Positions 43,392 to 57,744 of a stretch of 64,000 nt of DNA are shown here, piece by piece; position 1 is the stretch's first letter, and every line of letters begins with the position of its first letter. This stretch comes from Escherichia coli (GTDB lineage Bacteria > Pseudomonadota > Gammaproteobacteria > Enterobacterales > Enterobacteriaceae). A program made the position numbers and the translations under genes. The stretch is taken from assembly GCF_003991155.1 (NCBI RefSeq), contig NZ_CP031293.1; one strand, 5' to 3'. The notes below the pieces were generated by a model. It searched no databases, had not been told where the DNA came from, and worked only from the letters and a program-made list of their open reading frames with translations.

Positions 43392-44741
43392 ATGTCTGAA
43401 ATTGTTGTCTCCAAATTTGGCGGTACCAGCGTAGCTGATTTTGACGCCATGAACCGCAGCGCTGATATTGTGCTTTCTGATGCCAACGTGCGTTTAGTTG
43501 TCCTCTCGGCTTCTGCTGGTATCACTAATCTGCTGGTCGCTTTAGCTGAAGGACTGGAACCTGGCGAGCGATTCGAAAAACTCGACGCAATCCGCAATAT
43601 CCAGTTTGCCATTCTGGAACGTCTGCGTTACCCGAACGTTATCCGTGAAGAGATTGAACGTCTGCTGGAGAACATTACTGTTCTGGCAGAAGCGGCGGCG
43701 CTGGCAACGTCTCCGGCGCTGACAGATGAACTGGTCAGCCACGGCGAGCTGATGTCGACCCTGCTGTTTGTCGAAATCCTGCGCGAACGCGATGTTCAGG
43801 CACAGTGGTTTGATGTACGTAAAGTGATGCGTACCAACGACCGATTTGGTCGTGCAGAGCCAGATGTAGCCGCGCTGGCGGAACTGGCCGCGCTGCAGCT
43901 GCTCCCACGCCTCAATGAAGGCTTAGTGATCACCCAGGGATTTATCGGTAGCGAAAATAAAGGTCGGACAACGACGCTTGGCCGTGGAGGCAGCGATTAT
44001 ACGGCAGCCTTGCTGGCGGAGGCTTTACACGCATCTCGTGTTGATATCTGGACCGACGTCCCGGGCATCTACACCACCGATCCACGCGTGGTTTCCGCAG
44101 CAAAACGCATTGATGAAATCGCGTTTGCCGAAGCGGCAGAGATGGCAACTTTTGGTGCAAAAGTACTGCATCCGGCAACGTTGCTACCCGCAGTACGCAG
44201 CGATATCCCGGTCTTTGTCGGCTCCAGCAAAGACCCACGCGCAGGTGGTACGCTGGTGTGCAATAAAACTGAAAATCCGCCGCTGTTTCGCGCGCTGGCG
44301 CTTCGTCGCAATCAGACTCTGCTCACTTTGCACAGCCTGAATATGCTGCATTCTCGCGGTTTCCTCGCGGAAGTTTTCGGCATCCTCGCGCGGCATAATA
44401 TTTCGGTAGACTTAATCACCACGTCAGAAGTGAGCGTGGCATTAACCCTTGATACCACCGGTTCAACCTCCACTGGCGATACCTTGCTGACGCAATCTCT
44501 GCTGATGGAGCTGTCTGCACTATGCCGGGTAGAAGTGGAGGAAGGTCTGGCGCTGGTCGCGTTGATTGGCAATGACCTGTCAAAAGCCTGCGGCGTAGGC
44601 AAAGAGGTATTCGGCGTACTGGAACCGTTCAACATTCGCATGATTTGTTACGGCGCATCCAGCCATAACCTGTGCTTCCTGGTGCCCGGCGAAGATGCCG
44701 AGCAGGTGGTGCAGAAGCTGCATTTTAATTTGTTTGAGTAA
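43392..44741 (+). CDS. lysC: Lysine-sensitive aspartokinase III (LysC)
   Basis: 449 aa; N-terminal kinase motif VVSKFGGTSVAD; C-terminal ACT domains. Confidence 0.97.
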   Translation: MSEIVVSKFGGTSVADFDAMNRSADIVLSDANVRLVVLSASAGITNLLVALAEGLEPGERFEKLDAIRNIQFAILERLRYPNVIREEIERLLENITVLAEAAALATSPALTDELVSHGELMSTLLFVEILRERDVQAQWFDVRKVMRTNDRFGRAEPDVAALAELAALQLLPRLNEGLVITQGFIGSENKGRTTTLGRGGSDYTAALLAEALHASRVDIWTDVPGIYTTDPRVVSAAKRIDEIAFAEAAEMATFGAKVLHPATLLPAVRSDIPVFVGSSKDPRAGGTLVCNKTENPPLFRALALRRNQTLLTLHSLNMLHSRGFLAEVFGILARHNISVDLITTSEVSVALTLDTTGSTSTGDTLLTQSLLMELSALCRVEVEEGLALVALIGNDLSKACGVGKEVFGVLEPFNIRMICYGASSHNLCFLVPGEDAEQVVQKLHFNLFE

Positions 44742-44753
44742 ACGATCAGTAGA

Positions 44754-44781
44754 GGTGAATAGCGACCCACGACGCTATTCA
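44754..44781. terminator. lysC terminator hairpin
   Basis: gtgaatagcg / cgctattcac perfect 10-bp inverted repeat with an 8-nt loop. Confidence 0.7.
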
Positions 44782-44795
44782 CCATGCCGGTTCAA

Positions 44796-45143
44796 TTACG
44801 AATTACTGCGGCGCTGTTGCTTTTCCGCATGTACGCGTTTCACAATCTTATAAATCCATTGCAGCGTCAGATTATATTTCTTCGCTAATTCGGCGTAGTT
44901 GCGCCCATCGCACTCGCTATAGATTTGGTAGTCACGCTCCGATGCTCGTCCGGAGATCCCCTTAGGGAAATAAATGCTTTGTCCGCCCCAGTTACGCATC
45001 ATTCGGTCGGCAATGGCAAAGCCCACATTTTCTGCCGATGAACTGTCGAGATTGATGCTTTCAATCAGAACTTGCGATGCATGAAAAGCCAGGTCGTTAA
45101 TGATCTCCGGTGTCCGGGCCATCTCTTTTGATTTTCGTATCAT
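44796..45143 (-). CDS. Mor/C-like transcriptional activator (Mu middle/late activator family)
   Basis: 115 aa with C-terminal HTH (ELAKKYNLTLQWIYKIVKR), resembling the Mor/C family; transcribed divergently from the lysis/tail genes. Confidence 0.7.
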   Translation of the reverse strand: MIRKSKEMARTPEIINDLAFHASQVLIESINLDSSSAENVGFAIADRMMRNWGGQSIYFPKGISGRASERDYQIYSECDGRNYAELAKKYNLTLQWIYKIVKRVHAEKQQRRSNS

Positions 45144-45364
45144 TTTTCATCTCCATATATCTTGCATCCTGAATAAGACCCGATGCGTGTAAAACCACGG
45201 ATATACGCTAAGCAGTTGTCATTACTGCTACTCAATACATTCAACAAACAAATAAACAATTAACAAAAATATAAATTTTTAATATTAATGAACGCCATAA
45301 ATTCATGAAATAGATATATTGTTTGCGTTATGTTTCTTGTCAACAGGTGTATCATTTTACACGA

Positions 45365-45384
45365 TACTGTATACACATACAGTA
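45365..45384. promoter_or_regulatory. LexA-box-like palindrome in the island control region
   Basis: tactgtatacacatacagta, a perfect CTGT-N8-ACAG with TA-rich spacer; flanked by the inverted repeat ttttacac / gtgtaaaa. Confidence 0.6.
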
Positions 45385-45680
45385 TTATTTTTACTTGTAG
45401 TGTAAAAAGATCGTTTCCCTCACAGTCGCTGACTTTCTTAAACAAACTTTAAAAATCAAATAACTACTGACTATTCCTACGATTCACCATCATCTTTTCC
45501 CTGCATAATGACGCGCTTATTCGCGAGGTCACCTTTTGCTCTTTAATTGCTGAGTGGATTTATTAGCGGGCATGTTCATTTATAGAGAATCTATTTTTTA
45601 AACTTATTTATTAAAGCTTTTTTCATTCTTCACTGGCGGGTTCTGGCGACACTAAACGCTCACTTATCAGGAGATACCGT

Positions 45681-45968
45681 ATGAAAAAAGTCACTCTTCC
45701 CCGGCTTTCCGGTTGGCTGGTCGCTTCCGTCGCGCTGTTTGTCGTGATCGGCTGGACCTCTTCAGCACAAATCCCGGTCGTCATTTATAAACTAAGCCTG
45801 GTTTCGCTTTCCGCGGTGCTGGGATACTGGCTCGATCGCAGTTTGTTCCCCTGGGCACGGCCTGACTCTTTTTGCCCCTGGAAGGAACCGCGTTGCTGCG
45901 CGGCGGCAATGATTCGCCGGGCTATCATCGTTGCTGCCGTCTGCCTTTCCGTCGCGTTAGGGCTATAG
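45681..45968 (+). CDS. Small membrane protein, putative holin
   Basis: 95 aa with 2-3 predicted TM segments; AGGAGA RBS; first gene of the lysis cassette. Confidence 0.5.
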   Translation: MKKVTLPRLSGWLVASVALFVVIGWTSSAQIPVVIYKLSLVSLSAVLGYWLDRSLFPWARPDSFCPWKEPRCCAAAMIRRAIIVAAVCLSVALGL

Positions 45969-45970
45969 TG

Positions 45971-46576
45971 ATGTGGCTGAAATATATCGCGTCTATGATT
46001 ATTTTCGTTCTTTTCCCACTCAACGCCTCTGAACCGCCGAGAGCCTCTCTGGCATGGCGAAACGAACTAATTCGTACAGCTCGAGAAGTCTGGGGGCTGA
46101 ATGCCCCAGTGGCCGACTTTGCCGGGCAATTACACCAGGAGTCCGCCTGGCAGCCAATGGTACGTTCCCCCGTTGGCGCACAAGGTATGGCGCAATTTAT
46201 GCCTGCTACAGCGACATGGATAAGCCAGTTGTATCCACAATTGCGTGAAAACAAACCGTATAACCCAACCTGGGCGATTCGCGCGCTGGTGCAATATGAC
46301 CAGCATTTGTGGAAAAACATCTCTGCGAAAAATGATTGTCAGCGTATGGCGTTTACCCTAAGCGCCTATAACGGCGGTCAGGGGTGGGTTAACCGGGATA
46401 AAAAACTGGCTGCATCCAAAGGGTTAGATGCCACTAGCTGGTTTGGTCATGTTGAGCAAGTCAACGCCGGGCGCAGCGCCACGAACTGGCGAGAAAATCG
46501 TCGCTATCCAAAGATGATCCTCTATCAACATGCCGCCCGCTATTTACTCTGGGGACAGGCAAGCTGTCTTCATTAA
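45971..46576 (+). CDS. Lytic transglycosylase-type endolysin with N-terminal signal/SAR segment
   Basis: ATG at 45971; hydrophobic N-terminus MWLKYIASMIIFVLFPLNA; SLT-domain catalytic region (LHQESAWQP, AYNGG). Confidence 0.75.
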   Translation: MWLKYIASMIIFVLFPLNASEPPRASLAWRNELIRTAREVWGLNAPVADFAGQLHQESAWQPMVRSPVGAQGMAQFMPATATWISQLYPQLRENKPYNPTWAIRALVQYDQHLWKNISAKNDCQRMAFTLSAYNGGQGWVNRDKKLAASKGLDATSWFGHVEQVNAGRSATNWRENRRYPKMILYQHAARYLLWGQASCLH

Positions 46577-46588
46577 TCAGAGGGGCCG

Positions 46589-46903
46589 ATGAAACTCAGT
46601 ATCGATTTTTGGGAAGTGATCTCCCTTATGCTTTCCTTCGTTGGATTAATGTTTGCTGCCGGAAAACTGCTGTTAGCACAAATTGAAAAACGACTTAATG
46701 AGCGTTTTGAATCTCTGGAAAACGCGCGCCGGGAATCAGAAACAAGTTGGTCGAAACTGGAAAGAGAATTTCTCGAATTTCGTGCCGAGCTTCCGCTGCA
46801 TTATGTCCGCAGAGAAGATTATCTTCGTGGGCAAGCAGTATTAGAAGCGAAGCTGGATGCCTTATATAGCAAAATCGAGCTGTTACAACGTGGCAGTTAT
46901 TGA
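46589..46903 (+). CDS. Spanin-like protein (N-terminal TM plus coiled coil)
   Basis: 104 aa; TM helix then charged coiled-coil region; follows the endolysin. Confidence 0.5.
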   Translation: MKLSIDFWEVISLMLSFVGLMFAAGKLLLAQIEKRLNERFESLENARRESETSWSKLEREFLEFRAELPLHYVRREDYLRGQAVLEAKLDALYSKIELLQRGSY

Positions 46904-46904
46904 A

Positions 46905-46940
46905 AAATCCCCACCCTTATGTAAGGGTGGGGATTTTTTT
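46905..46940 (+). terminator. Strong rho-independent terminator after the lysis cassette
   Basis: aaatccccaccctta / taagggtggggattt 15-bp stem followed by a T-run. Confidence 0.85.
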
Positions 46941-47047
46941 AACCATTCAATTTTTTCTCTAAATCACATTAAAAGATTCTTCACCTTCGCTGCTTCAGAA
47001 TACATTTCAACGATAACGAAGTGAGCGGTAATTAAGGTACAGCCTAT

Positions 47048-47503
47048 ATGGAAATTTTATCTGTAATGAATTCTGTTGTGACCAGATTACGTGAACACAA
47101 CTCCGAAATGGATATATTTATTTCATCTAAGGATGCCCAGAAATATATTCCACAGACACAACGAGTTGCAGTGATTATTAATTATAGCGGTTCTGTCTTT
47201 GCTACGCCCGAAAGCAGTAATGCCATCGTGCAACAGCAAATACTCCGCTTAACCGCCACCGTTATTGTTGGCAAAAATTGTGATGCATTAAACGCACTTG
47301 ATCACATACGCAGCGCATTGGGTGGCCTTCAGCTTCCTGATTGCGATCGTCTTCTTTGGCTTGAAAAAGAAATTAATACGGGTGAGAGCGGCGGTTTCTG
47401 CCGCTACATCCTGGAAATGGCGACCAGCTCGCTATTTATCGCTGAACAGGAAAGCACGGATCTTCCCCTGCTTACGGAAGTTAACTACGAGGAAACTGAA
47501 TGA
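47048..47503 (+). CDS. Tail completion/terminator-like protein (Mu gp37-like)
   Basis: 151 aa immediately upstream of the sheath and tube genes; family call made by sequence recall. Confidence 0.5.
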   Translation: MEILSVMNSVVTRLREHNSEMDIFISSKDAQKYIPQTQRVAVIINYSGSVFATPESSNAIVQQQILRLTATVIVGKNCDALNALDHIRSALGGLQLPDCDRLLWLEKEINTGESGGFCRYILEMATSSLFIAEQESTDLPLLTEVNYEETE

Positions 47504-47697
47504 AATACATCTACAACGGCCCAGCAAGCGGCGTCACCCTTGCCGATGGACAAGAAATCTTATTGTGGCCGAACAGTGAAATTGATCTGCCAGAAGACAA
47601 CGAGTGGGTCATGACCATGATTGCCCGCAATCATCTGACTCCTGTCATCACTCAGGAAGAACAAAATAACGTAGAGGAAATTGTACATGGCAGCTAA
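47500..47697 (+). CDS. Small tail-module protein (Mu gp38-like)
   Basis: 65 aa; ATGA start-stop overlap with the upstream gene. Confidence 0.45.
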   Translation: MKYIYNGPASGVTLADGQEILLWPNSEIDLPEDNEWVMTMIARNHLTPVITQEEQNNVEEIVHGS

Positions 47698-49111
47698 TTA
47701 TCTGCACGGTGTAGAAACTATTGAAATTGAAACCGGCCCGCGTCCGGTTAAAGCGGTAAAATCCGCCGTCATCGCTTTAATCGGTACAGCCCCCTGCGGT
47801 CCGGTAAATAAACCAACATTATGCCTTTCTGAAAGCGATGCTGCGCAGTTTGGCTCGACTCAGGCTAACTTTACGATCCCACAGGCACTGAAGGCAATTT
47901 ATGACCACGGTGCCGGTACGGTGGTGGTGATTAACGTGCTGGATCCGGCAAAACATGGCTCCAACATCAGCAATGAGAGTATCACTTTTGATGCTAACAA
48001 CCAGGCGAAGCTCGCTCACCGCAATGTGCGTAACGTGGTACTAAAGCCCTCTTCATCAAATTCATCAACCTTTAACACCGCAGCATTTAGCGTAGATGAA
48101 CAAACAGGCATAATTACCCGTAAAGGAGCCGACATTCCTCCTGGTGCGAAAGTTTGTGCCTATTATTCCTGGTGCGACCCTACAAAGGTCACCGCAGCCG
48201 ATATTATCGGTACCGTAAATACCGCAGGCGACCGCACGGGGATGAAACTGCTACAGGACACCTATAACCTGTATGGTTTCTACGCCAAAATCCTGCTTGC
48301 TCCCGTGTTCTGTACGCAAAAATCAGTAACTACAGAGCTGATTGCACAAGCGGAAAAACTTGGTGCGATTACCTACATTGATGCCCCGATTGGGACGACA
48401 TTCCAGCAGGTATTGGCAGGACGCGGTTCGCAAGGGGCTATCAACTTCAACACCAGCTCTGATCGTGCGCGTTTATGTTACCCACACGTCAAAGTTTACG
48501 ATGGCATCACTAACCAGGAAGTTCTCGAACCGCTCTCTTCGCGCGCTGCCGGGCTACGTGCCAAAGTAGACCTCGAAAAAGGTTTCTGGTGGAGCAACTC
48601 AAACCAAGAAATTCAGGGTATTACCGGTATTGAACGTTCGCTTTCCGCAATGATTGATGATCCACAAAGCGAAGTGAATCAGCTAAACGAAAACGGCATT
48701 ACCACTATTTTCAATAGTTACGGCTCTGGTCTGCGCTTGTGGGGCAACCGCACTGCAGCGTGGCCTACCGTGACCCATATGCGTAACTTTGAAAACGTCC
48801 GCCGGACAGGCGATGTAATTAATGAGTCAATCCGTTATTTCAGTCAGCAGTATATTGATATGCCGATTAATCAGGCGCTGATTGATGCCCTGACCGAATC
48901 GGTAAATACCTGGGGCCGTAAGCTGATTGCCGACGGCGCACTGCTTGGCTTTGAATGCTGGTACGATCCGGCGCGAAATTCACCGACTGAACTCAGCGCT
49001 GGGCATTTATTGCTGAGCTATAAATTCACCCCACCGCCGCCGCTGGAACGTCTGACGTTTGAAACTGAAATTACTTCTGAATATTTAGTCTCTCTGGAGA
49101 GCAATAGCTAA
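47687..49111 (+). CDS. Contractile tail sheath protein
   Basis: About 474 aa from the ATG at 47687 (track start 47681 is TTG); GAGGAAA RBS; followed by the tube gene. Confidence 0.85.
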   Translation: MAANYLHGVETIEIETGPRPVKAVKSAVIALIGTAPCGPVNKPTLCLSESDAAQFGSTQANFTIPQALKAIYDHGAGTVVVINVLDPAKHGSNISNESITFDANNQAKLAHRNVRNVVLKPSSSNSSTFNTAAFSVDEQTGIITRKGADIPPGAKVCAYYSWCDPTKVTAADIIGTVNTAGDRTGMKLLQDTYNLYGFYAKILLAPVFCTQKSVTTELIAQAEKLGAITYIDAPIGTTFQQVLAGRGSQGAINFNTSSDRARLCYPHVKVYDGITNQEVLEPLSSRAAGLRAKVDLEKGFWWSNSNQEIQGITGIERSLSAMIDDPQSEVNQLNENGITTIFNSYGSGLRLWGNRTAAWPTVTHMRNFENVRRTGDVINESIRYFSQQYIDMPINQALIDALTESVNTWGRKLIADGALLGFECWYDPARNSPTELSAGHLLLSYKFTPPPPLERLTFETEITSEYLVSLESNS

Positions 49112-49635
49112 TGGCTGGAAAAATTCAAATTAACCGTATTACCAACGCCAATATTTATCTCGATGGTAATAACCTTTTAGGTCGTGCAACCGAAATTAAA
49201 TTGCCGGATGTCAGTTTAATTATGCAGGAGCATAAAGCACTGGGCATGGTGGGTAAAATCGAACTCCCGGCGGGTTTCGATAAACTGGAGGGCGAAATTA
49301 AATGGAACTCCTTCTATCAGGACGTAATGCGTAAAACGGCAAACCCGTGGCAGGCGGTTGCATTACAGTGCCGCTCCAGTATTGATTGCTATAACTCCCA
49401 GGGGAAAGCGAATCAATTAGCGCTAGTGACACATTTAACCGTGATGTTTAAAAAGAATCCACTGGGCACATTTAAACAGAATGAAAACCCGGAATTCAGC
49501 AGCGCCTTTGGTTGCACTTATATTAAACAAGTAGTTGATGGTGAAACGCTGCTTGAACTTGATTATATGGCCAATATTTTCCGGGTTAATGGTGTGGATC
49601 AATTAAGTACCTATCGCAATAACATCGGTGGCTAA
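49111..49635 (+). CDS. Tail tube protein (P2 FII-like)
   Basis: 174 aa; ATG overlaps the sheath stop; resembles P2 FII-type tube proteins. Confidence 0.8.
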   Translation: MAGKIQINRITNANIYLDGNNLLGRATEIKLPDVSLIMQEHKALGMVGKIELPAGFDKLEGEIKWNSFYQDVMRKTANPWQAVALQCRSSIDCYNSQGKANQLALVTHLTVMFKKNPLGTFKQNENPEFSSAFGCTYIKQVVDGETLLELDYMANIFRVNGVDQLSTYRNNIGG

Positions 49636-49639
49636 GTTA

Positions 49640-49660
49640 TTCGGGGCTACGGCCCCGAAC
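49640..49660 (+). other. Intra-operon hairpin after the tube gene (possible attenuator)
   Basis: ttcggggc / gccccgaa stem with no following T-run. Confidence 0.4.
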
Positions 49661-49685
49661 TTTGCAAAATAAATAAGGACACAAA

Positions 49686-50003
49686 ATGAAAGAACATTAT
49701 ATCTTACAGTTCCCGTTTACTTCAGCGGCGGGAGACGTAATTAACACTCTGCAATTACGTCGCCTGAAAGTAAAAGATATGCGCAACGCGCGCCGGATCA
49801 GCGAAAAACCTGAAGAGTGGGATGAACCGCTAATGGCGGCAATGACCGGACTGGTGCCAGAAGATTTAGCTGAAATGGATTTGCTGGATTACCAGGCATT
49901 GCAGAAACGATTTCAATCCATGCTTAGCGTGGCTACAGAATCCGCCACTGTTATGGCAAGCGATGGCGTTACTGGCGAGATGGTTTCGCTTTCCACCCAG
50001 TGA
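49686..50003 (+). CDS. Tail assembly chaperone (gpE/gp41-like)
   Basis: 105-aa acidic protein directly upstream of the tape measure gene. Confidence 0.65.
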   Translation: MKEHYILQFPFTSAAGDVINTLQLRRLKVKDMRNARRISEKPEEWDEPLMAAMTGLVPEDLAEMDLLDYQALQKRFQSMLSVATESATVMASDGVTGEMVSLSTQ

Positions 50004-50192
50004 GATAGACGCCCTTACCGTCGATGACTTTAGCAACTGGCTGGATGAAGCCAGCGCCCAAATAAAAATCGAATATGACTCGCAGACCTGATGTCTGCGA
50101 GTTTCCCAAGCCCGTCAGGTTTATTTCTTCCCTGCCCCTTTTTTTAGAAAAATAACCAGCGGGCCATTATCAATATTTAAAGAGAAACAATT

Positions 50193-52568
50193 TTGGCCAA
50201 CGATATTATTACCCAGCTTCAGGCGCGTAATGAGACGTTGACGCAGGCAATAGCCCGTTACGGCTCACTCAACGCCAGAACATTGTTAACTCTCTCTACT
50301 CAGCAGGCGACAGTTATCAAACTAACGCAGCAGCTTGCCGATTCCGCTCTCCGCCTGGAGGAAAATAGCCGCAGCCGCGCTAATCTGATGGAGAAAACCC
50401 AAACATTTGCCGGGCAATTTAGCAAAGTATTCAATGTTGAAGCCCCCGACTGGAAGTTGCCGTATGAGTTTCAGGACAACATGGTCAATATGGCGACCAA
50501 AGGTGGGATGAATGCTACAACCCGCGAGACGCTCAGCCTTAATCTGCGCGACTGGAGCATGGATTTTAACCAGCAGCAGACCACCTTACAGAACGCAGCC
50601 CAAACGCTGATCGAAGGCAATTTGTCGTCGATACAGGATCTCAACCGTTATATGCCGGAGATCGCCAAAGCTGCCACCGCCACGCGCGAAAGTGCTGAAA
50701 CATGGGCGAATGCCGCGCTCGCAACCCATGATCGACTGAATATTGCCCCGGAAAATTTCCACGCCGCGCAAAACATGATGTACGGCATTAGCAAAAGCGG
50801 TGGGCCTGCCATTGCTGAACAAACGCAGTGGATAGAGAAATTTGCAGGTAAAACCGGCGCTCAGGGTCTGGAAGGTATGGCTGAACTGACCGCCACCATG
50901 CAGATCGCCATGAAAAACGGGGCCAGCGCCAGTGCGGCGGCGGAGAATTTCGACCACTTTCTGCAAACCACCTTTTCGAAAAAAACCGATTACTGGTTCG
51001 TCAGCCAGGGCGTTGATCTGCAAGGCTCTCTGCTTGAGCATCAGCAAAACGGTATGGGTGTTAGCGAAGCCATGACTCATATCGTGCAAATGCAGCTTGA
51101 GAAGATGAATCCGGCGATCCTCGACACCTTCAAACGCACCATGCAGATCGAAGATTTATCTGCCCGCAGCAATGCGCTGCAATCGATGGTGACGCAGTTT
51201 AATCTGGGGGAAATGTTCGGCGATGCGCAAACAGTGGAATTCCTGGCCCCTATGCTGGCGAATATGGAGGAATATCGCCAGTTAAAAGCCTCTGCCATGC
51301 AAGCCACCAGCAAGAATCTGATTGATGCCGACTTTTCTGCGCAAATGGCCTCGCCCATTGAACAGACTAAAGCGTTACAGCTGGCGTTAAATGATTTATG
51401 GCTCAGCATTGGCTTGCAATTAATGCCGCTGATTGGCGAGCTGGCACAAAGCCTTACGCCGGTTATTCGTCAGTTCAGCGCCTGGCTACGTGAGCACCCG
51501 ACACTGGTGCAAAACATCGCGAAAATCGTCGGGGCGATTTGGCTGTTTAACGGTGCGCTGAATGTTTTAAAGCTGGGCGCGAACCTCATCACCTCGCCGT
51601 TTATTCGTCTGGTCGATATCTTCCTGAAAGTCAAGGCAAGTCTGGCGCTCACAGGCGGGGCAAGTAAGATGCTATCAGCGGTTAAGTCATTGGGTGGCGG
51701 CGCAAAATGGCTAACGCAACTGCTTGGTCGTGGCCTGATTGGAACATTGAAACTGGTTGGTCGGACCGTTCTCTCACTAGGCCGGGTGCTACTGATGAAT
51801 CCCATTGGTCTGGTCATCACTGCGATTGCGGGCGCTGCTTATCTGATTTATCGCAACTGGGAGCCTATCTCCAGGTTCTTTTCGACCATCTGGCAACGTA
51901 TCACCACGGCCTTTGACGGCGGCATTGCAGGAATTTGTCGGTTGATTCTCGACTGGTCACCGCTGGAGTTGTTCTATAGCGCCTTTTCCAGTGTGATGAA
52001 TTGGTTTGGTGTCGAGATGCCTGCAAGTTTTAGCGAGTTCGGCAGCAATCTTCTGGGCAGTCTGGTTGACGGCATAATGAATGCCTTCCCCGCTCTGAAA
52101 GGCATTATTGATCAGGTAAAAAACGCCATCCCAGACTGGCTAAAAACCACGATGGGTATTAGTACAGAAGGATCGGCTACAGCTATTACAAGCACGACTA
52201 ATACCGCATCCGTCTCCCCCGCGACCGTTGTTCCAGGCGTTGCCGGTGCGATTTTAACGCCGCCGGTGGGCAAACAACTCGCGCCATCCGGCAAAACGGC
52301 TACGCCGTCATCGGCGCCAGCGGCAAAAAATACAGCCGCCAAACCCGTATCTGCCTCTTTACCTGGTAAATCCGTAACCAAAGCGGCGACGCTACCTTCC
52401 CGTTCCTCAGGAAAAGTTCAGGTGAATTTTTCGCCACAAATTACCGTGCAGGGTAACGGACAAAACACCACTAAAGAGATTCAGAACGTGTTGACGATGA
52501 GTAAACGCGAACTGGAAAGAATGATTAACGATGTAATGGCGCAGCAGCAGCGCCGGGGGTATGCCTAA
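50193..52568 (+). CDS. Tail tape measure protein
   Basis: 791 aa, largely alpha-helical, hydrophobic central segments, Ala/Pro/Ser/Thr-rich C-terminal region; track start is TTG. Confidence 0.85.
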   Translation: MANDIITQLQARNETLTQAIARYGSLNARTLLTLSTQQATVIKLTQQLADSALRLEENSRSRANLMEKTQTFAGQFSKVFNVEAPDWKLPYEFQDNMVNMATKGGMNATTRETLSLNLRDWSMDFNQQQTTLQNAAQTLIEGNLSSIQDLNRYMPEIAKAATATRESAETWANAALATHDRLNIAPENFHAAQNMMYGISKSGGPAIAEQTQWIEKFAGKTGAQGLEGMAELTATMQIAMKNGASASAAAENFDHFLQTTFSKKTDYWFVSQGVDLQGSLLEHQQNGMGVSEAMTHIVQMQLEKMNPAILDTFKRTMQIEDLSARSNALQSMVTQFNLGEMFGDAQTVEFLAPMLANMEEYRQLKASAMQATSKNLIDADFSAQMASPIEQTKALQLALNDLWLSIGLQLMPLIGELAQSLTPVIRQFSAWLREHPTLVQNIAKIVGAIWLFNGALNVLKLGANLITSPFIRLVDIFLKVKASLALTGGASKMLSAVKSLGGGAKWLTQLLGRGLIGTLKLVGRTVLSLGRVLLMNPIGLVITAIAGAAYLIYRNWEPISRFFSTIWQRITTAFDGGIAGICRLILDWSPLELFYSAFSSVMNWFGVEMPASFSEFGSNLLGSLVDGIMNAFPALKGIIDQVKNAIPDWLKTTMGISTEGSATAITSTTNTASVSPATVVPGVAGAILTPPVGKQLAPSGKTATPSSAPAAKNTAAKPVSASLPGKSVTKAATLPSRSSGKVQVNFSPQITVQGNGQNTTKEIQNVLTMSKRELERMINDVMAQQQRRGYA

Positions 52569-53521
52569 TGTATGCCGTTTTAGGAGAGATTGAATTTAAG
52601 GTTGTCACATTCTGGGACGGCTTTAAAAGCACAATGGGCGTGGATTACGCCACACATGCCCGTATAGAAGGCAAACCCGGCGTGCAGTTTATTGGCGATA
52701 AGCTGGATATGCTGGCGCTGGAATTTTCCCTGCACAGCCAGTTTTGCCAGCCCACAACAGAGCTGAACCGACTGCGTGAAGCCATGCTTGCTCACAAGGC
52801 GATGGCACTGGTATTTGGCAATGGCGATTATCGCGGCTGGTTTGTGATTACGGAGCTAACCGCCACCCACCAGCACACCGATCCCTGGGGCAATGTGATT
52901 GCCCAAAACGGAACGATGTCGCTCCAGGAGTACACCGGCGATCCTAAAAATCCACTTTTACCTCCGGCGATTACCACCCAGGAGCCCAACATCGAGGAAA
53001 AGGCGAGCGATTTTCCCGACAAGGTGGAGTCCTGGTTTGATCAGATATTAAACGCCATTGAAGAAGGTATGCGTAAGGCCAAAGAGATGCTGGATGAACT
53101 GACACAATCCATTGAAGATATTAAAAAAACGGTGGCAAAAGTGAAAGCAATGATTAAAGAGGCCAAAGCGTTAAAAGAAAAGTGTGAAAAGATAATTACG
53201 TCATTGAAAAAGACAATCGACGCCATCGAAACCCTGTTTAAACAGCCAATGGATCTGCAAACGCTGGCAGGCCTACCAAAAGCGTTGTCGGCGCAGATTA
53301 AAGCTTTACTGGGTAACATGCCAGGTATCCGGGACTGCGCCAATGACGCCAGTACGCTGGTTGACCATGCTCAGGCGCTTTTCGACGACATTACCAGCGA
53401 CATCGCCGAAGCGACGTTCGATAAAGCCACGTCGTTGGTTGAGCAGGCACGTACAACGGTACAACAAACCACTCCCGCAGTGAGCCAGCTTGCTGCCGTA
53501 ACCATTACCAGGAGCTGGTAA
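52568..53521 (+). CDS. Tail protein, gpU / DNA-circulation N-terminal-domain-like, with coiled-coil C-terminal extension
   Basis: N-terminal 140 aa resemble P2 gpU / Mu gpN N-domain; C-terminal half is Lys/Glu-rich coiled coil. Confidence 0.6.
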   Translation: MYAVLGEIEFKVVTFWDGFKSTMGVDYATHARIEGKPGVQFIGDKLDMLALEFSLHSQFCQPTTELNRLREAMLAHKAMALVFGNGDYRGWFVITELTATHQHTDPWGNVIAQNGTMSLQEYTGDPKNPLLPPAITTQEPNIEEKASDFPDKVESWFDQILNAIEEGMRKAKEMLDELTQSIEDIKKTVAKVKAMIKEAKALKEKCEKIITSLKKTIDAIETLFKQPMDLQTLAGLPKALSAQIKALLGNMPGIRDCANDASTLVDHAQALFDDITSDIAEATFDKATSLVEQARTTVQQTTPAVSQLAAVTITRSW

Positions 53522-53730
53522 TGCGATACCTTGAACATATCACCACCGATGGCGAACGCTGGGATAACCTGGCATGGCATTACTACGGTGATGCGCTGGC
53601 TTATGAACGCATAATCGCCGCCAATCCACATGTAGCCATTTACCCGGTACTGCCTTCCGGTATTCAGCTCATTATTCCGGTCATTTCCGTTAATAAAACC
53701 TTATCGGAGATCCCACCATGGCTGAGATGA
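53521..53730 (+). CDS. Tail protein X-like (LysM-like)
   Basis: 69 aa with the DxWDxLAxxYYGD...ANP pattern typical of P2 gpX. Confidence 0.65.
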   Translation: MRYLEHITTDGERWDNLAWHYYGDALAYERIIAANPHVAIYPVLPSGIQLIIPVISVNKTLSEIPPWLR

Positions 53731-54758
53731 GCGTAACTGGTGGCGTCTTTGCCACACTCACGCCCATTTTTACCCTCTGGTATGGGCATAAAGATATCAC
53801 TTATGACATCACACCCTATGTCACCAGCATCAGTTACCACGACAGCATCAAAAACGAGTCGGATACCATCGCAATTACACTGGATGACACAGATGGACGC
53901 TGGATAAAAGAGTGGTATCCCGGCAAAGGCGATACGCTGGCGCTGCATATAGGTTATCAGGGGGAAAAGCTGCTCGATTGTGGCCAGTATATTATTGATA
54001 AAATTGATATTTCAGCGCCACCTTCCACGGTAAATATTGATGGCATCGCCACTTCCGTCAATCAGGCGCTGCGCACCCGTAACAGCCAGGGCTTTGAAGA
54101 AACGACGCTTTCGGCGATCGCCAGCCGTATTGCCCAAACGCACGGTCTGAAACTGGTGGGCAAAATCGAGTCGCTCACCATCGACCGGGTAACGCAGTAT
54201 GGTGAAACCGATGTCGGATTTCTCAAACGTCTGGCCAGTGAATATGGTTATGCCGTAAAAGTGACGACAAAAGAGCTGATTTTTTCACATTTACCCACGC
54301 TGCGCTGCCTGACGCCTGTGAAAAAGATCGATCGCAAAGAGGTTTCTCATTTTACCTTCAAAGACACCATTAACCGGATCTACAAGAACGCCACCGTACA
54401 GCATCAAAATAGTAAGAAAAAAGAACTGGTTATCTACACTCACAACAGCCAGCAAAAACCATCTGTCCGTGGAGTCGGCACTAGTGCCGACACGCTAAAA
54501 CTGAACAGTCGGGCGACGGACGTTGGCGCAGCACAGGCAAAGGCTAACGCTGCACTCGACAGCCACAACGAATATCAGCAAACCGGAACGCTCACAATGA
54601 TGGGCTGCCCGGAACTGACGGCGGGCAATAAAATTGAACTGACCGATTTTGGCGTGATTTCCGGTCAGTGGCTGATTGATAAATCTACTCACAGTTTTGT
54701 GCGCAGCGGCTATACCACTGAAATCGACGTGTCACGCGGGCCAGCGACCAGCCAGTAA
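53718..54758 (+). CDS. Tail/baseplate hub protein (P2 gpD / Mu gpP-like)
   Basis: 346 aa following gpU-like and gpX-like genes. Confidence 0.65.
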   Translation: MAEMSVTGGVFATLTPIFTLWYGHKDITYDITPYVTSISYHDSIKNESDTIAITLDDTDGRWIKEWYPGKGDTLALHIGYQGEKLLDCGQYIIDKIDISAPPSTVNIDGIATSVNQALRTRNSQGFEETTLSAIASRIAQTHGLKLVGKIESLTIDRVTQYGETDVGFLKRLASEYGYAVKVTTKELIFSHLPTLRCLTPVKKIDRKEVSHFTFKDTINRIYKNATVQHQNSKKKELVIYTHNSQQKPSVRGVGTSADTLKLNSRATDVGAAQAKANAALDSHNEYQQTGTLTMMGCPELTAGNKIELTDFGVISGQWLIDKSTHSFVRSGYTTEIDVSRGPATSQ

Positions 54759-54767
54759 GGAGGAAAT

Positions 54768-55469
54768 ATGAAAGGAGTAACCCGTCAAACGGGGATTATC
54801 AGCGATATTGACGAAACCAGTGTTCGGGTACGGGTCACTCTACCAGAGTGTGACAATCTGAAGAGCAACTGGCTTGCGGTACTTCAACGCAATTCCCAGG
54901 ACAATAAAGACTACTGGCTACCGGATATGGGCGAGCAAGTGGAAGTTCTGCTGGACGATAACGGTGAAGATGGCGTGGTGCTGGGTGCCGTTTATTCTAC
55001 GGTTGACACCGCGCCTGTAGCCTCGCGCGACAAACGTTACGTCCAGTTTTCTGATGGCGCAGCGTTTGAATATGACCGCAGCACGCACCAGCTGACGATT
55101 AACGGCGGTATCGAGAAAATCGTGATTGAGGTTATCGACAGCACCCGCCTGACATCGCCCAACGTTGAGATTAAAGCCCAACACGTCACCGTGACTTCCG
55201 ATACCGTCGATGTTAAAGCGACCGATGTCAGCATCGACGCCACTAAGGTCGAGGTTAAAGCAGCAGCAGTGACGGTAGATGCGCCCATGAGCACCTTTAC
55301 TGGCAACGTCACGGTAATGAAAAAACTCACCTGGCTTGGCGGGATGGCAGGAAGTGGAGGCATCGGTAACGCAGCCACGATAACCGGCAATGTCAACGTG
55401 ATCGGCAACGTTCAGGCCAGCGGCGCATTGCAGGACAGCGGTGGCAACTCCAACCACCATTCACACTGA
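54768..55469 (+). CDS. Baseplate central spike protein (gpV-like)
   Basis: 233 aa; beta-rich repeats (VEIKAQHVTVTSDTVDVKATDVSIDATKVEVKAAAVTVDA); C-terminal HHSH. Confidence 0.75.
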   Translation: MKGVTRQTGIISDIDETSVRVRVTLPECDNLKSNWLAVLQRNSQDNKDYWLPDMGEQVEVLLDDNGEDGVVLGAVYSTVDTAPVASRDKRYVQFSDGAAFEYDRSTHQLTINGGIEKIVIEVIDSTRLTSPNVEIKAQHVTVTSDTVDVKATDVSIDATKVEVKAAAVTVDAPMSTFTGNVTVMKKLTWLGGMAGSGGIGNAATITGNVNVIGNVQASGALQDSGGNSNHHSH

Positions 55470-55567
55470 CTTTTAACCCGCCTGATGGCGGGTTTTCTCT
55501 TTTTAATCAATCAGTTTTCTAAATCGCTTTAATATCTCCACAGCCCGTTCAGGGCGAAAATACCCTC

Positions 55568-55927
55568 ATGAACACAAAAACACGCCCCTCAACGCTGCAC
55601 TGGCAACCGGCCTTGCAGCGGCCTGAAGAATACGTCTGCGGGCTGGATGATATTCACCAGGCAATACACATCATTCTGCGTACACCGCGCGGCAGTGATC
55701 CCCACAGACCGCTGTTTGGCAGCAACTTGTGGCACTACATCGATTACCCCATCGAGCGGGCTATCCCGCATGTGGTACGGGAGTCGGTGGAAGCCATCCG
55801 CCAGTGGGAACCGCGCTGTCGGTTGCTGAAGGTGACACCAGTAATCGACGGCGAACATCTGACGTTACGTGTGCAATGGCGCGCCGCTGACGGCGTTATC
55901 AACTCAACGGAGGTGTTATGGCGATAG
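55568..55927 (+). CDS. Baseplate wedge protein (GPW/gp25 lysozyme-like family)
   Basis: 119 aa with family-typical GxDxxxAIHIIL...GSxPxRPxFGS pattern. Confidence 0.75.
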   Translation: MNTKTRPSTLHWQPALQRPEEYVCGLDDIHQAIHIILRTPRGSDPHRPLFGSNLWHYIDYPIERAIPHVVRESVEAIRQWEPRCRLLKVTPVIDGEHLTLRVQWRAADGVINSTEVLWR

Positions 55928-57742: not shown

Positions 57743-57744
57743 TA

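What the first reader, a model, noticed from the sequence alone, without database searches (positions are those of the whole stretch)
45681..46940. Lysis cassette with a signal-anchored lytic transglycosylase, closed off by a strong terminator
The holin-like gene is followed by an SLT-domain endolysin whose N-terminus is a hydrophobic signal or SAR-like segment, then a TM plus coiled-coil spanin-like gene. A 15-bp-stem terminator (46905-46940) directly follows, so the lysis genes may be a transcription unit separate from the tail structural genes, or the hairpin may be a site for antitermination. Retention of an intact lysis system alongside the tail genes argues for functional particle release.
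Basis: partly seen in the sequence, partly recalled or inferred. Interest (0 to 1): 0.5.

Follow-up and report, generated by a model that had tools for sequence, protein, structure and literature searches.

The report
Spanin-less lysis module of tailocin island
This is the three-gene cell-bursting module (holin, exported wall-cutting enzyme, and a small membrane-tethered helper that is not a spanin) of a domesticated phage-tail island next to lysC in E. coli, closed by a genuine terminator; it is a well-preserved variant of a known phage (BcepMu-type) lysis cassette, not a new kind of system.

Summary
In detail: three co-oriented ORFs (45681-45968, 45971-46576, 46589-46903) are followed by the window's strongest hairpin (46903-46938 plus a T-run to 46940).

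- **Context.** The window is E. coli chromosome. The genes open a head-less, BcepMu-derived tail island between lysC and yjbD, present in 196 of 5426 complete E. coli genomes.
- **Genes 1 and 2.** Gene 1 is a Holin_2-3 holin. Gene 2 is an SLT transglycosylase with the catalytic Glu. Its N-terminus looks like a short cleavable Sec signal peptide, not a signal anchor or SAR domain.
- **Gene 3.** It is not a spanin. It is the homologue of BcepMu gp25, which in complete phages lies downstream of Rz/Rz1. Those spanin genes are cleanly absent here, and no lipoprotein ORF exists.
- **gp25-like protein.** It is predicted N-out/C-in. It occupies the slot held by the Mu releasin family (DUF2730) in a sister phage, but homology is unproven.
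- **Selection.** The spanin-less trio is conserved at the same locus in Salmonella, Enterobacter and Superficieibacter, with dN/dS of 0.03-0.09.
- **Terminator and promoter.** The hairpin shows compensatory changes across genera. A conserved late-promoter motif lies 20 nt after it, so lysis and tail genes are most likely separate activator-dependent units.

Overall this is an ordinary kind of cassette with modest interest.

The parts
44796..45143 (-). Mor/C-family late transcription activator. It is divergent from the lysis genes and is the first gene of the island next to lysC.
   Evidence: PHROG 532 'late transcriptional activator', E 1e-35. RefSeq annotates it as a Mor family protein. It holds the same end position and strand as BcepMu gp01.
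45365..45384 (.). LexA (SOS) box, TACTGTATACACATACAGTA. It overlaps the spacer and -10 of a + strand sigma-70-like promoter, TTTACA-16-TACAGT (45356-45383).
   Evidence: It is the only match with up to 3 mismatches to the 20-nt consensus in 64 kb, against 0 expected. The promoter scan found the overlapping promoter. The box is conserved in other E. coli, Salmonella and Superficieibacter and absent in Enterobacter.
45612..45653 (+). Putative activator-dependent lysis promoter. It consists of a diverged copy of the BcepMu-type late motif (TAAAGCTTTTTTCATT, 45612-45627), 20 nt of spacer, and a -10-like GACACT (45648-45653).
   Evidence: It sits in the same register before the holin ATG (53 nt) as the canonical motif in BcepMu, PhiKM and the Yersinia, Salmonella, Lelliottia and Pectobacterium elements (51-56 nt). 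This block is the best-conserved part of the intergenic region across four genera. Its function is inferred.
45681..45968 (+). Holin, BcepMu gp21 type. It has three hydrophobic segments (about 9-29, 31-50 and 74-95).
   Evidence: Pfam Holin_2-3 and PHROG 1528 holin. It is 49% identical to BcepMu gp21 and 54% to the PhiKM holin. Hydropathy is. dN/dS is 0.03-0.09.
45971..46576 (+). SLT-family lytic transglycosylase endolysin. Codons 1-19 (45971-46027) encode a short N-terminal export signal, MWLKYIASMIIFVLFPLNA|SE.
   Evidence: Pfam SLT. Glu57 in the motif HQES aligns with the Slt70 'QES' Glu478. It is 53% identical to BcepMu gp22. The N-terminal pattern is conserved in orthologues. dN/dS is 0.07-0.09.
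46589..46903 (+). BcepMu-gp25-like protein. It has an N-terminal transmembrane helix (predicted N-out) and a roughly 75-aa cytoplasmic helical domain carrying the invariant motif P-x2-YVRREDY-x-R-x-Q-x3-EAKLD. It is not a spanin.
   Evidence: tblastn and annotation in BcepMu, B3 and PhiKM. Alignment A1. No Pfam match. The family holds 1058 representative clusters. Structure model. dN/dS is 0.035-0.085.
46903..46940 (+). Intrinsic terminator. It has a 16-17 bp GC-cored stem, a 4-nt loop and a T7 run. An A-run upstream gives it a bidirectional form.
   Evidence: Fold energy and z-score. It is the longest hairpin in the window. It is conserved with 3 compensatory pairs in E. coli, Salmonella and Superficieibacter. 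Pectobacterium has an unrelated terminator at the same junction, and Enterobacter has none.
46960..47001 (+). Putative activator-dependent tail-operon promoter. It consists of the canonical late motif TAAATCACATTAAAAG (46960-46975), 20 nt of spacer, and a -10-like CAGAAT (46996-47001).
   Evidence: It is the only match to TAAWNNNNWTTARAAK in the window. The same motif lies upstream of Gp37 in every tail-only relative and upstream of the holin or head operons in complete prophages, always on the + strand and intergenic. BcepMu has exactly two identical copies, against 0.02 expected.
47048..47503 (+). Gp37-family protein, the first gene of the tail operon (it is followed by a 65-aa gene, then sheath, tube and onward to the fibre and chaperone at 60481).
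   Evidence: RefSeq annotation of the identical locus and PHROG 209. Its neighbours are Pfam Gp37 proteins in the relatives.

Best explanation
The region is the lysis module of a domesticated, head-less BcepMu-type prophage: an R-type tailocin-like island inserted between lysC and yjbD.

**Composition**
- A Holin_2-3 holin.
- An SLT lytic transglycosylase, exported to the periplasm by a short, probably cleavable Sec signal peptide.
- A BcepMu-gp25-like protein: a transmembrane helix tethering a cytoplasmic helical domain to the inner membrane.
- The Rz/Rz1 spanin pair that separates the endolysin from gp25 in complete relatives has been excised. The gp26-to-gp36 packaging and head genes that follow gp25 are also gone.

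**Proposed working**
1. After induction (an SOS box lies upstream, and a Mor-family activator is encoded divergently), the three genes are transcribed as one short operon that stops at the intrinsic terminator at 46903-46940.
2. The tail genes are transcribed from their own activator-dependent promoter 20 nt further on.
3. The endolysin accumulates in the periplasm.
4. The holin triggers and collapses the membrane potential, which unleashes the wall degradation that frees the tail particles.
5. The gp25-like protein acts from the cytoplasmic face as an accessory of this step, either a releasin-like or a holin-regulating function.
6. Outer-membrane rupture happens without a dedicated spanin.

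**Shown versus inferred**
- Shown: gene identities, absence of spanins, conservation and purifying selection, terminator structure and covariation, and the promoter motif.
- Inferred: export and cleavage of the signal peptide, the role of gp25-like, the promoter and LexA functions, and actual particle release.
For: **Context**
- The 3-kb query spanning the cassette is 100% identical to annotated E. coli chromosomes, where the locus is flanked by lysC and yjbD and has no head, integrase or replication genes; the whole island differs from strain 2016C-3878 at 2 of 17,801 bases.
- Gene order is collinear with BcepMu gp01 | gp21, gp22, gp25 | gp37-gp52.

**Gene identities**

**The third gene is gp25, not Rz**
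- It is 45-50% identical to BcepMu gp25, B3 ORF28 and the PhiKM homologue. In those phages a 199-216-aa Rz (with embedded Rz1 in BcepMu) lies between the endolysin and this gene.
- Here the gap between the endolysin and this gene is 12 nt.

**No spanin**
- No plausible lipobox ORF was found in 44.7-62.5 kb.
- tblastn with the Rz/Rz1 proteins of BcepMu, PhiKM, B3 and Mu finds nothing.

**Same architecture at the same locus elsewhere**
- The spanin-less arrangement occurs next to lysC in Enterobacter, Superficieibacter and Salmonella (LT2 tags STM4219-4212).
- dN/dS is 0.03-0.09 with saturated dS for all three genes.

**gp25-like protein**
- Basic residues cluster after the transmembrane helix and the N-terminal flank is acidic, which predicts N-out/C-in.
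- It was retained while both flanking blocks were deleted, which argues against a head or packaging role.
- B3 (gp25-like) and Fc02 (DUF2730, listed as a releasin-family protein in Table S1 of PMC9239132) carry the two proteins in the same slot, next to Rz proteins that are 65% identical.

**Signal peptide**
- The pattern of a 13-residue hydrophobic core, Pro, and an AxA-like site is conserved in six orthologues even though the sequences have diverged.

**Terminator and promoter**
Against: - No experiment shows lysis, export, termination or particle production.
- Signal-peptide cleavage could not be predicted with a dedicated tool. Chamblee et al. (PMC9239132) class the related Pseudomonas transglycosylases as SAR endolysins.
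- gp25-like has no significant sequence homology to the Mu releasin. hhalign probability is 0.5% with shallow alignments and 20-31% with deep ones, and no member matches Pfam DUF2730. Its lysis role therefore rests on position and retention only.
- Lack of a spanin could mean the cassette lyses poorly in unshaken conditions.
- The P_lys motif is diverged in its second half, TTTTCATT instead of TTTAAAAK.
- The Enterobacter orthologous island lacks the hairpin, so the terminator is not indispensable.
- The LexA-overlapped promoter points toward the holin rather than toward mor, so the regulatory order is unclear.
Confidence: 0.7

Rival explanations
1. One reading: a complete holin-endolysin-spanin cassette in which the TM plus coiled-coil gene is the i-spanin, with an o-spanin hidden inside or next to it.
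For: The protein has the superficial look of an i-spanin: one N-terminal TM helix followed by long helices. It also sits directly after the endolysin.
Against: - Its homologues in BcepMu, B3, PhiKM and the Yersinia and Salmonella prophages coexist with a separate Rz/Rz1 pair located upstream of them.
- The charge distribution predicts a cytoplasmic C-terminus.
- No lipobox ORF lies in or near the gene, and there is no similarity to any Rz.
Confidence: 0.04
2. SAR-endolysin plus releasin system. The N-terminal segment of the SLT enzyme is an uncleaved signal-anchor-release domain, and the gp25-like protein is a true functional (possibly very distant homologous) releasin that frees it from the membrane, as Mu gp25 does for gp22. 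The holin would act mainly as a timer or pinholin.
For: - gp25-like has the same size, the same predicted N-out/C-in topology and the same genomic slot as DUF2730 releasins. It replaces a DUF2730 protein between near-identical neighbours in B3 versus Fc02 (PMC9239132).
- There is a weak collinear profile similarity over the Trp-TM-ExRLxxR segment (hhalign probability 31%).
- The paper classes SLT endolysins of Pseudomonas Mu-like phages as SAR.
Against: - The hydrophobic core is 13 residues with a Gly/Ala/Ser/Thr fraction of 0.15. Verified SAR domains have 16-23 residues and 0.55-0.65.
- A Pro plus AxA-like cleavage motif is conserved.
- Only one basic residue (K4) precedes the core, unlike the K6/K7 pair that makes Mu gp22 releasin-dependent.
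- There is no significant homology to DUF2730.
Confidence: 0.25
3. Decaying prophage remnant: the cassette is a non-functional relic whose intactness is accidental, and loss of the spanins is one step of the decay.
For: - Large parts of the ancestral phage are gone.
- Individual strains carry lesions: a stop in the tape measure gene of strain 2016C-3878, an IS insertion in two strains, partial deletions, and a frameshifted endolysin in one Enterobacter.
Against: - The same gene set sits at the same chromosomal site in four genera, with dN/dS of 0.03-0.09 at saturated dS.
- All tail genes are present, and the tape measure gene is intact in this window.
- The regulatory motifs and the hairpin are conserved, with compensatory changes in the hairpin.
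Confidence: 0.1
4. The hairpin is a regulated read-through or antitermination site (or an mRNA-stabilising 3' structure). Under this view the lysis and tail genes form one operon driven from upstream of the holin.
For: - Enterobacter orthologues lack the hairpin yet keep the same gene order.
- The only sigma-70-like promoter with a LexA box lies upstream of the holin, so read-through could couple tail expression to SOS.
Against: - No N- or Q-like antiterminator gene is present in the island.
- A complete late-promoter unit (motif, 20 nt, -10-like hexamer) follows the hairpin. It is conserved in all tail-only relatives, including those without the hairpin.
- The stem plus T-run is canonical for efficient intrinsic termination.
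Confidence: 0.12

Closest known systems
Lysis cassette of Burkholderia phage BcepMu (gp21 holin, gp22 SLT endolysin, gp23/gp24 Rz/Rz1, gp25) and Bcepmuvirus relatives such as Escherichia phage PhiKM and Klebsiella phage KP12
   Same: - The holin (49-54% identity), endolysin (53-65%) and gp25 (45-50%) are homologous and in the same order.
- The same late-promoter motif lies at the same distance before the holin.
- A Mor/C activator sits at the left end on the opposite strand.
   Different: - The Rz/Rz1 pair is missing, and gp25 is followed by a terminator instead of gp26/TerS.
- The holin lacks about 20 loop residues.
- The second half of the P_lys motif is diverged.
- The element has no head, transposition or repressor genes.
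Carotovoricin-type tail-only cluster of Pectobacterium (locus L006, P. brasiliense)
   Same: - It is a head-less BcepMu-derived cluster with holin, SLT endolysin, gp25-like, then Gp37, a 65-aa gene, sheath and tube.
- It also has a terminator plus late motif before Gp37.
   Different: - Pectobacterium keeps a 224-aa gene in the Rz slot between the endolysin and gp25-like, and also a gp26-like gene.
- Its terminator is unrelated in sequence.
- It sits at a different chromosomal site, and no Mor gene was seen in the stretch fetched.
Phage Mu lysis system: SAR endolysin gp22, spanins gp23/gp23.1 and releasin gp25 (DUF2730); Chamblee et al. 2022, PMC9239132
   Same: - A roughly 100-aa N-out/C-in membrane-tethered cytoplasmic protein lies a few genes after an exported endolysin and before gp26/gp27/TerL.
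- Late transcription depends on a Mor/C-family activator.
   Different: - Mu has no holin, whereas this cassette has one.
- The Mu endolysin is a muramidase with a Gly/Ala-rich SAR domain.
- gp25-like shows no significant similarity to DUF2730.
- Mu has spanins.
R-type pyocin and other tailocin lysis cassettes of Pseudomonas (Ghequire et al. 2015, PMC4684702)
   Same: - The lysis cassette is attached to a tail-only cluster and induced by DNA damage.
- According to that paper, P. aeruginosa clusters and a few others also lack the rz/rz1 pair.
   Different: - The holin and endolysin families are unrelated (TC 1.E.20 holin, a different hydrolase).
- The regulators differ (PrtN/PrtR versus Mor plus a LexA box).
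- The tail ancestry differs.

Membership tests
Two-component spanin (Rz/Rz1 type) | The i-spanin is a type II membrane protein (N-in, C-terminal coiled-coil domain in the periplasm). | tested here: not met
   Prediction only. The N-flank MKLSIDFWE is net acidic. Basic residues K26, K34, R35 and R39 follow the TM helix and are conserved family-wide, so the positive-inside rule gives N-out/C-in.
Two-component spanin (Rz/Rz1 type) | A partner o-spanin lipoprotein gene is embedded in, overlapping or adjacent to the i-spanin gene. | tested here: not met
   A relaxed lipobox scan of all nested ORFs on both strands of 44700-62500 found nothing in or near the cassette. The only hits were implausible ORFs lying within the tail-gene region.
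Two-component spanin (Rz/Rz1 type) | Homology or positional equivalence to the spanins of related phages. | tested here: not met
   tblastn with the Rz/Rz1 proteins of BcepMu, PhiKM, B3 and Mu gave no hit (E > 0.2) in the window. The homologues of gene 3 are separate genes downstream of Rz/Rz1.
Holin_2-3 (PF13272), BcepMu gp21-type holin | Match to the family profile, and a small protein with 2-3 transmembrane segments encoded next to the endolysin. | tested here: met
   The Pfam match (E 2.2e-22) comes in two pieces that skip about 20 loop positions. PHROG 1528 also matches. Three hydrophobic segments are present. The stop codon lies 2 nt before the endolysin ATG (45971) and shares one base with an in-frame GTG at 45968.
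Holin_2-3 (PF13272), BcepMu gp21-type holin | Timed, lethal hole formation in the inner membrane. | not testable with these tools
   Needs expression experiments.
Family 1 lytic transglycosylase (SLT, PF01464) | SLT domain with the catalytic Glu in the E-S motif. | tested here: met
   Pfam SLT, E 1.5e-14. Glu57 (HQES) aligns with Glu478 (RQES) of E. coli Slt70 (1qsa), and the AYNGG motif aligns with AYNAG. That Glu478 is the catalytic residue of Slt70 is taken from established knowledge.
SAR (signal-anchor-release) endolysin | An uncleaved, weakly hydrophobic, Gly/Ala/Ser-rich N-terminal TM domain of about 16-23 residues. | tested here: not met
   The core YIASMIIFVLFPL is 13 residues, with mean Kyte-Doolittle hydropathy 2.4 and a G/A/S/T fraction of 0.15. 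Mu gp22, P1 Lyz and R21 have fractions of 0.55-0.65. A Pro plus AxA-like site is conserved in six orthologues. Cleavage itself could not be tested.
Releasin (DUF2730, PF10805; Mu gp25) | Sequence membership in DUF2730. | tested here: inconclusive
   None of the 19 family members matched Pfam DUF2730 at E up to 0.1. hhalign probability was 0.5% with shallow alignments and 20-31% with a 144-sequence alignment. HMM scores were only 5-10 bits.
Releasin (DUF2730, PF10805; Mu gp25) | [quoted passage not shown] | tested here: met
   The position is shown. It holds the same slot as the DUF2730 protein of phage Fc02, next to an Rz 65% identical to that of B3.
Releasin (DUF2730, PF10805; Mu gp25) | Required for release of a membrane-tethered endolysin. 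| not testable with these tools
   Needs genetics and fractionation.
Rho-independent (intrinsic) terminator | A GC-rich stem-loop directly followed by a U-run at the end of a gene. | tested here: met
   It has a 16-17 bp stem with a CCCCACCC/GGGTGGGG core and a T7 run, and it starts in the stop codon. Across genera, 86% of cells are paired, 3 pairs carry compensatory changes, and 2 of 500 shuffles reach the observed score.
Rho-independent (intrinsic) terminator | Termination of transcription in vivo. | not testable with these tools
   Needs 3'-end mapping.
R-type tailocin (phage tail-like bacteriocin) cluster | A complete contractile-tail gene set with lysis and regulatory genes but no head, packaging, replication or integration genes. 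| tested here: met
   The RefSeq annotation of the matching locus (2 differences in 17.8 kb) lists Mor, holin, SLT, gp25-like, Gp37, sheath, tube, chaperone, tape measure, gpU/X/D/V/W/J/I homologues, fibre and two further fibre-region genes, and nothing else phage-like. The tape measure gene is intact in the window.
R-type tailocin (phage tail-like bacteriocin) cluster | Production of bactericidal tail particles. | not testable with these tools
   No report for this island was found in the paper library.

The most novel reading that the evidence does not exclude
The BcepMu-gp25-like family (over 1000 sequence clusters, no Pfam model, mislabelled 'lipoprotein') may be a second class of membrane-tethered cytoplasmic lysis factor, unrecognisable by sequence, that is interchangeable with the DUF2730 releasins. 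In this island it would have been kept under selection because it is what allows an exported SLT endolysin plus holin to release tail particles without any spanin. If so, it would be an essential and general component of lysis in BcepMu/B3-type phages and their tailocin descendants.
Probability: 0.25. Interest if true: 0.55.

Novelty: new member of a known kind. Interest (0 to 1): 0.35.

Why it matters
- **Annotation.** The finding corrects a tempting mis-annotation: a TM plus coiled-coil gene after an endolysin is not automatically a spanin. It also shows that the database labels 'lipoprotein' for this family and 'portal protein' for Gp37 are misleading.
- **Biology.** A head-less BcepMu-derived tail island with a spanin-less lysis trio has been kept under purifying selection at the lysC locus in E. 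coli, Salmonella (LT2 STM4212-4219), Enterobacter and Superficieibacter. This makes it a good candidate for an uncharacterised enterobacterial R-type tailocin.
- **A natural experiment on gp25.** Both neighbouring gene blocks were deleted while the gp25-like gene stayed intact. This isolates it as a lysis-associated, or at least head-independent, function. It gives a simple genetic system for asking what the releasin-slot proteins of Mu-like phages do when the endolysin is not a classical SAR enzyme.
- **Regulation.** The paired late-promoter motifs and the terminator give a testable map of the island's transcription units.

Tried and rejected
- **Spanin search.** A relaxed lipobox scan of every nested ORF in the island and tblastn with four phages' Rz/Rz1 proteins found nothing, so the spanin reading was rejected.
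- **Homology of gene 3 to the Mu releasin.**
  - Pfam on the protein and on 19 relatives gave no DUF2730 match.
  - hhalign gave 0.5% probability with shallow alignments and 20-31% with deep ones.
  - HMM scores were 5-10 bits.
  - The result is inconclusive, so the protein is not filed as DUF2730.
- **Structure route.**
  - The AlphaFold model of gene 3 is two helices.
  - Foldseek against BFVD gave no match, which is uninformative for simple helices.
  - The second structure job was not used.
- **Other family libraries.** NCBIfam gave nothing specific for genes 1 and 3.
- **Rfam.** Only sub-threshold matches driven by the hairpin were found around the cassette, so no known RNA family is present.
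- **Homology of the hairpin to ancestral phage sequence.** The G-I intergenic regions of BcepMu and the Yersinia and Salmonella prophages contain hairpins before the same promoter motif, but they are not alignable to this one. Common descent is not shown.
- **PADLOC.** The two right-end cargo genes gave no hit.
- **Literature.** No description of this island, or of tail particles from it, was found. LT2 locus tags appear only in screening or expression lists.
- **Antitermination.** This was rejected as unnecessary because a full promoter unit follows the hairpin and no antiterminator gene exists.
Full report
**1. Observation.** The region holds three tightly packed + strand ORFs: 45681-45968 (95 aa), 45971-46576 (201 aa) and 46589-46903 (104 aa). 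They are followed by a perfect 17-nt inverted repeat (46903-46919 / 46922-46938). Its stem begins inside the TGA stop codon, and its 3' arm ends in a T7 run reaching 46940. The 71-nt context folds at -28.5 kcal/mol with z = -5.06, and none of 200 shuffles folds as well. It is the longest short-range inverted repeat in the 64-kb window. The consensus terminator scan missed it on the + strand. The likely reason is that the A-run/T-run pairing uses up the T's that the rule expects after the stem.

**2. Where this is.** The window is E. coli chromosome. The 3-kb stretch around the cassette is 100% identical to many complete genomes, and the cassette occurs in 196 of 5426 complete E. coli genomes, always on the chromosome. 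In the annotated copy the order is:
- pgi, lysC;
- a Mor-family activator on the opposite strand;
- holin, lytic transglycosylase, 'membrane protein';
- Gp37-family protein, a 65-aa protein, sheath, tube, chaperone, tape measure;
- gpU/X/D/V/W/J/I-like proteins, fibre, and two further fibre-region genes (a DUF4376-domain protein and a hypothetical protein);
- two unrelated minus-strand genes (nucleotidyltransferase, slipin), then yjbD.

There are no head, packaging, replication, transposition or integration genes. The order is collinear with phage BcepMu gp01 (Mor/C) | gp21-22, gp25 | gp37-gp52. The island is therefore a BcepMu-type prophage that has lost its early region, its spanins and its packaging/head block, which is the anatomy of an R-type tailocin cluster. 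The tape measure gene is intact in this window. The RefSeq pseudogene flag in strain 2016C-3878 is due to a single-base difference.

**3. Holin.** Gene 1 matches Pfam Holin_2-3 (E 2e-22) and PHROG 1528 'holin'. It is 49-54% identical to the holins of BcepMu and PhiKM. It has three hydrophobic segments.

**4. Endolysin.** Gene 2 has an SLT domain. Glu57 in HQES aligns with the 'QES' Glu478 of E. coli Slt70, and AYNGG aligns with AYNAG. That Glu478 is the catalytic residue comes from established knowledge of Slt70. The features of the N-terminus, MWLKYIASMIIFVLFPLNA|SEPP, are:
- one basic residue;
- a strongly hydrophobic core of only 13 residues, with a Gly/Ala/Ser/Thr fraction of 0.15 (against 0.55-0.65 in the verified SAR domains of Mu gp22, P1 Lyz and R21);
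- a Pro, followed by a small-x-small site.

The same pattern recurs in the Enterobacter, Superficieibacter, Salmonella, Lelliottia and BcepMu orthologues (…PFAEA|KG, …PVNA|AQ, …PADA|AE, …AVQA|AE, …PVAA|QV), although the hydrophobic cores have diverged. I read this as a cleavable Sec signal peptide, which would make the enzyme a soluble periplasmic protein rather than 'signal-anchored'. This is an inference, because no signal-peptide predictor was available. Chamblee et al. class the related Pseudomonas enzymes as SAR, so I keep the SAR reading as a rival.

**5. The third gene is not a spanin.** Several lines of evidence agree.
- Its best phage matches are BcepMu gp25 (45%), B3 ORF28 (44%) and the PhiKM/KP12 homologues (about 50%).
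- In each of those phages, a 199-216-aa Rz gene (with an embedded Rz1 annotated in BcepMu) lies between the endolysin and this gene. The same is true in complete Yersinia and Salmonella prophages.
- In the window the endolysin stop and the gene-3 start are 12 nt apart.
- tblastn with Rz/Rz1 of BcepMu, PhiKM, B3 and Mu finds nothing in the window.
- A deliberately permissive lipobox scan of all nested ORFs in the island finds no credible lipoprotein.
- In the family alignment the N-terminal flank is acidic, and conserved basic residues follow the TM helix (G25-K26, K/R34-35, R39). The positive-inside rule therefore places the helical domain in the cytoplasm, the opposite of an i-spanin.

The family is large: 1058 clusters at 50% identity have E below 1e-3. 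It has no Pfam model. It carries an invariant motif, P-x2-YVRREDY-x-R-x-Q-x3-EAKLD, at a predicted helix break.

**6. What gene 3 may do.** In BcepMu the following genes, gp26 to gp29, correspond to Mu gp26 to gp29. gp25 therefore occupies the slot of Mu gp25, the 'releasin'. That protein is a 99-aa N-out/C-in DUF2730 protein needed to free Mu's SAR endolysin (PMC9239132).
- Phage Fc02, listed in that paper's Table S1 as carrying a DUF2730 protein next to an SLT endolysin, has the order holin, endolysin, Rz, DUF2730, gp26-like.
- Its relative B3 has the order holin, endolysin, Rz (65% identical), gp25-like, gp26-like.
- The two proteins are thus positional replacements with the same architecture.
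- Sequence homology is not demonstrable. hhalign gives 0.5% probability with shallow alignments and 20-31% with a 144-sequence alignment, limited to the Trp-TM-ExRLxxR segment. A fold search was uninformative.
- Independent of homology, the E. coli-type islands deleted the genes on both sides of gp25-like (Rz/Rz1 upstream, gp26 to gp36 downstream) and kept it with dN/dS of 0.035-0.085. This argues that it does not serve packaging or head assembly and belongs functionally with the holin and endolysin.

**7. Conservation.** The same arrangement, Mor | holin-SLT-gp25-like | Gp37…, lies next to lysC in the Enterobacter cloacae complex, Superficieibacter and Salmonella, where the genes are LT2 STM4219 to STM4212.
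- All of these lack spanins and gp26.
- Pairwise dN/dS is 0.03-0.09 for all three genes with dS at or near saturation. The spanin-less trio is therefore old and selected, not a recent accident.
- A Lelliottia element lacks heads and spanins but still has the transposase.
- A Pectobacterium (carotovoricin-type) cluster keeps a 224-aa gene in the Rz slot, gp25-like and gp26-like.
- According to Ghequire et al., the absence of rz/rz1 has a precedent in P. aeruginosa R-pyocin clusters.

**8. Terminator and promoters.** A hairpin with the same AAATCCC…GGGATTT frame and a T-run follows gene 3 in other E. coli, Salmonella and Superficieibacter. Three stem pairs changed on both sides, 86% of cells are paired, and 2 of 500 shuffles reach the observed score. 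Pectobacterium has an unrelated strong terminator at the same junction, and Enterobacter has none.

Twenty nucleotides after the hairpin lies TAAATCACATTAAAAG (46960-46975), the only match to the motif in the window.
- The motif TAAM-N4-WTTAAAAK occurs 51-56 nt before the holin start in every BcepMu-like element examined.
- It occurs before Gp37 in every tail-only relative, and before the head or other operons in complete prophages. It is always on the + strand and intergenic.
- BcepMu has exactly two identical copies, against 0.02 expected. They lie before holin gp21 and before protease/scaffold gp32, mirroring the Plys and PI late promoters of Mu.
- In every holin-upstream copy printed, and in the window's tail copy, a -10-like hexamer of loose form xAxxxT (for example CACACT, TACACT, GATAAT, CAGAAT) follows after exactly 20 nt.
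- The window's copy before the holin (45612-45627) has a diverged second half but sits in the same register. It is the best-conserved part of the intergenic region across four genera.

I infer two Mor-dependent late promoters, with the terminator separating a short lysis operon from the tail operon. No antiterminator-like gene is present.

**9. Upstream control (seen in passing).** A near-consensus LexA box (45365-45384) is the only such match in 64 kb. It overlaps the -10 of a + strand promoter-like site and is conserved in Salmonella and Superficieibacter. This fits DNA-damage induction, as in other tailocins. How it connects to mor, which is on the other strand, is unresolved.

**10. Verdict.** This is a real, intact, selected lysis module of a known kind (BcepMu-type), sitting in an uncharacterised enterobacterial tailocin-like island. 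Interest is modest. The most useful by-products are the isolation of the gp25-like protein as a head-independent, releasin-slot lysis accessory and a testable regulatory map.

Noticed in passing
window 45356-45384: A near-consensus LexA (SOS) box, TACTGTATACACATACAGTA, overlaps the -10 of a + strand sigma-70-like promoter (TTTACA-16-TACAGT) in the mor-holin intergenic region. It is conserved in other E. coli, Salmonella and Superficieibacter, and absent in Enterobacter, which also lacks the terminator hairpin.
   Followed up: partly
window about 45441-45457: An extra dyad, TTAAA-CAAAC-TTTAA, resembles the late-promoter motif but has a 5-nt instead of a 4-nt spacer. It lies about 220 nt upstream of the holin and is conserved in Salmonella. 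Its role is unknown.
   Followed up: no
window 50193-52568: The tape measure gene is intact here. RefSeq flags it as a pseudogene (internal stop) in the almost identical strain 2016C-3878, because of a single-base difference.
   Followed up: yes
window 44700-47700 (strains CREC-544 and EC0585): Two E. coli genomes carry an ISL3-family ISKox3 insertion inside this stretch of the island.
   Followed up: no
window 60496-62420, minus strand: Two cargo genes at the right end of the island, a nucleotidyltransferase-domain protein and a slipin/SPFH protein, lie between the tail-fibre region and yjbD. They gave no PADLOC match, but a defence or accessory role is possible.
   Followed up: partly
loci L022 (OR845313.1) and OR851449.1: Two short GenBank 'UNVERIFIED_ORG' phage records (Escherichia phage ECO95 1-6-1 and Salmonella phage S.Kent 1-2-1) match this island. 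The ECO95 record was read and resembles the Salmonella-type version of the island. They are probably host DNA in phage preparations, not phage genomes.
   Followed up: partly
loci L014/L015 (Lelliottia): A BcepMu-like element lacks the head genes and spanins and has the same gp25|Gp37 junction, but still carries the transposase, early genes and repressor. It is a possible intermediate in the domestication.
   Followed up: no
locus L023 (BcepMu) 11486-11501 and 18813-18828: Exactly two identical copies of TAAAGCCGATTAAAAG occur in the BcepMu genome. They lie before holin gp21 and before protease/scaffold gp32, and are candidate Mor/C-dependent late promoters analogous to Mu Plys and PI.
   Followed up: partly
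window 46589-46903 and 47048-47503: Database labels are misleading. PHROG 462 and RefSeq phage records call the gp25-like family 'lipoprotein', though it has no lipobox. PHROG 209 calls the Gp37-family protein 'portal protein'.
   Followed up: yes
locus L012 (Enterobacter) 6380-6998: The endolysin reading frame appears to be disrupted by a frameshift in one Enterobacter cloacae-complex genome, while a second genome (L013) has it intact.
   Followed up: no
loci L004 (B3) and L019 (Fc02): The endolysin catalytic domains of B3 and Fc02 look nearly identical by eye, but the N-terminal export segments differ. B3 has a long two-segment extension, resembling Fc02's separate 52-aa ORF, fused to the enzyme. 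Fc02 has a short signal with an LSAC lipobox-like motif. The difference coincides with gp25-like versus DUF2730 downstream.
   Followed up: no
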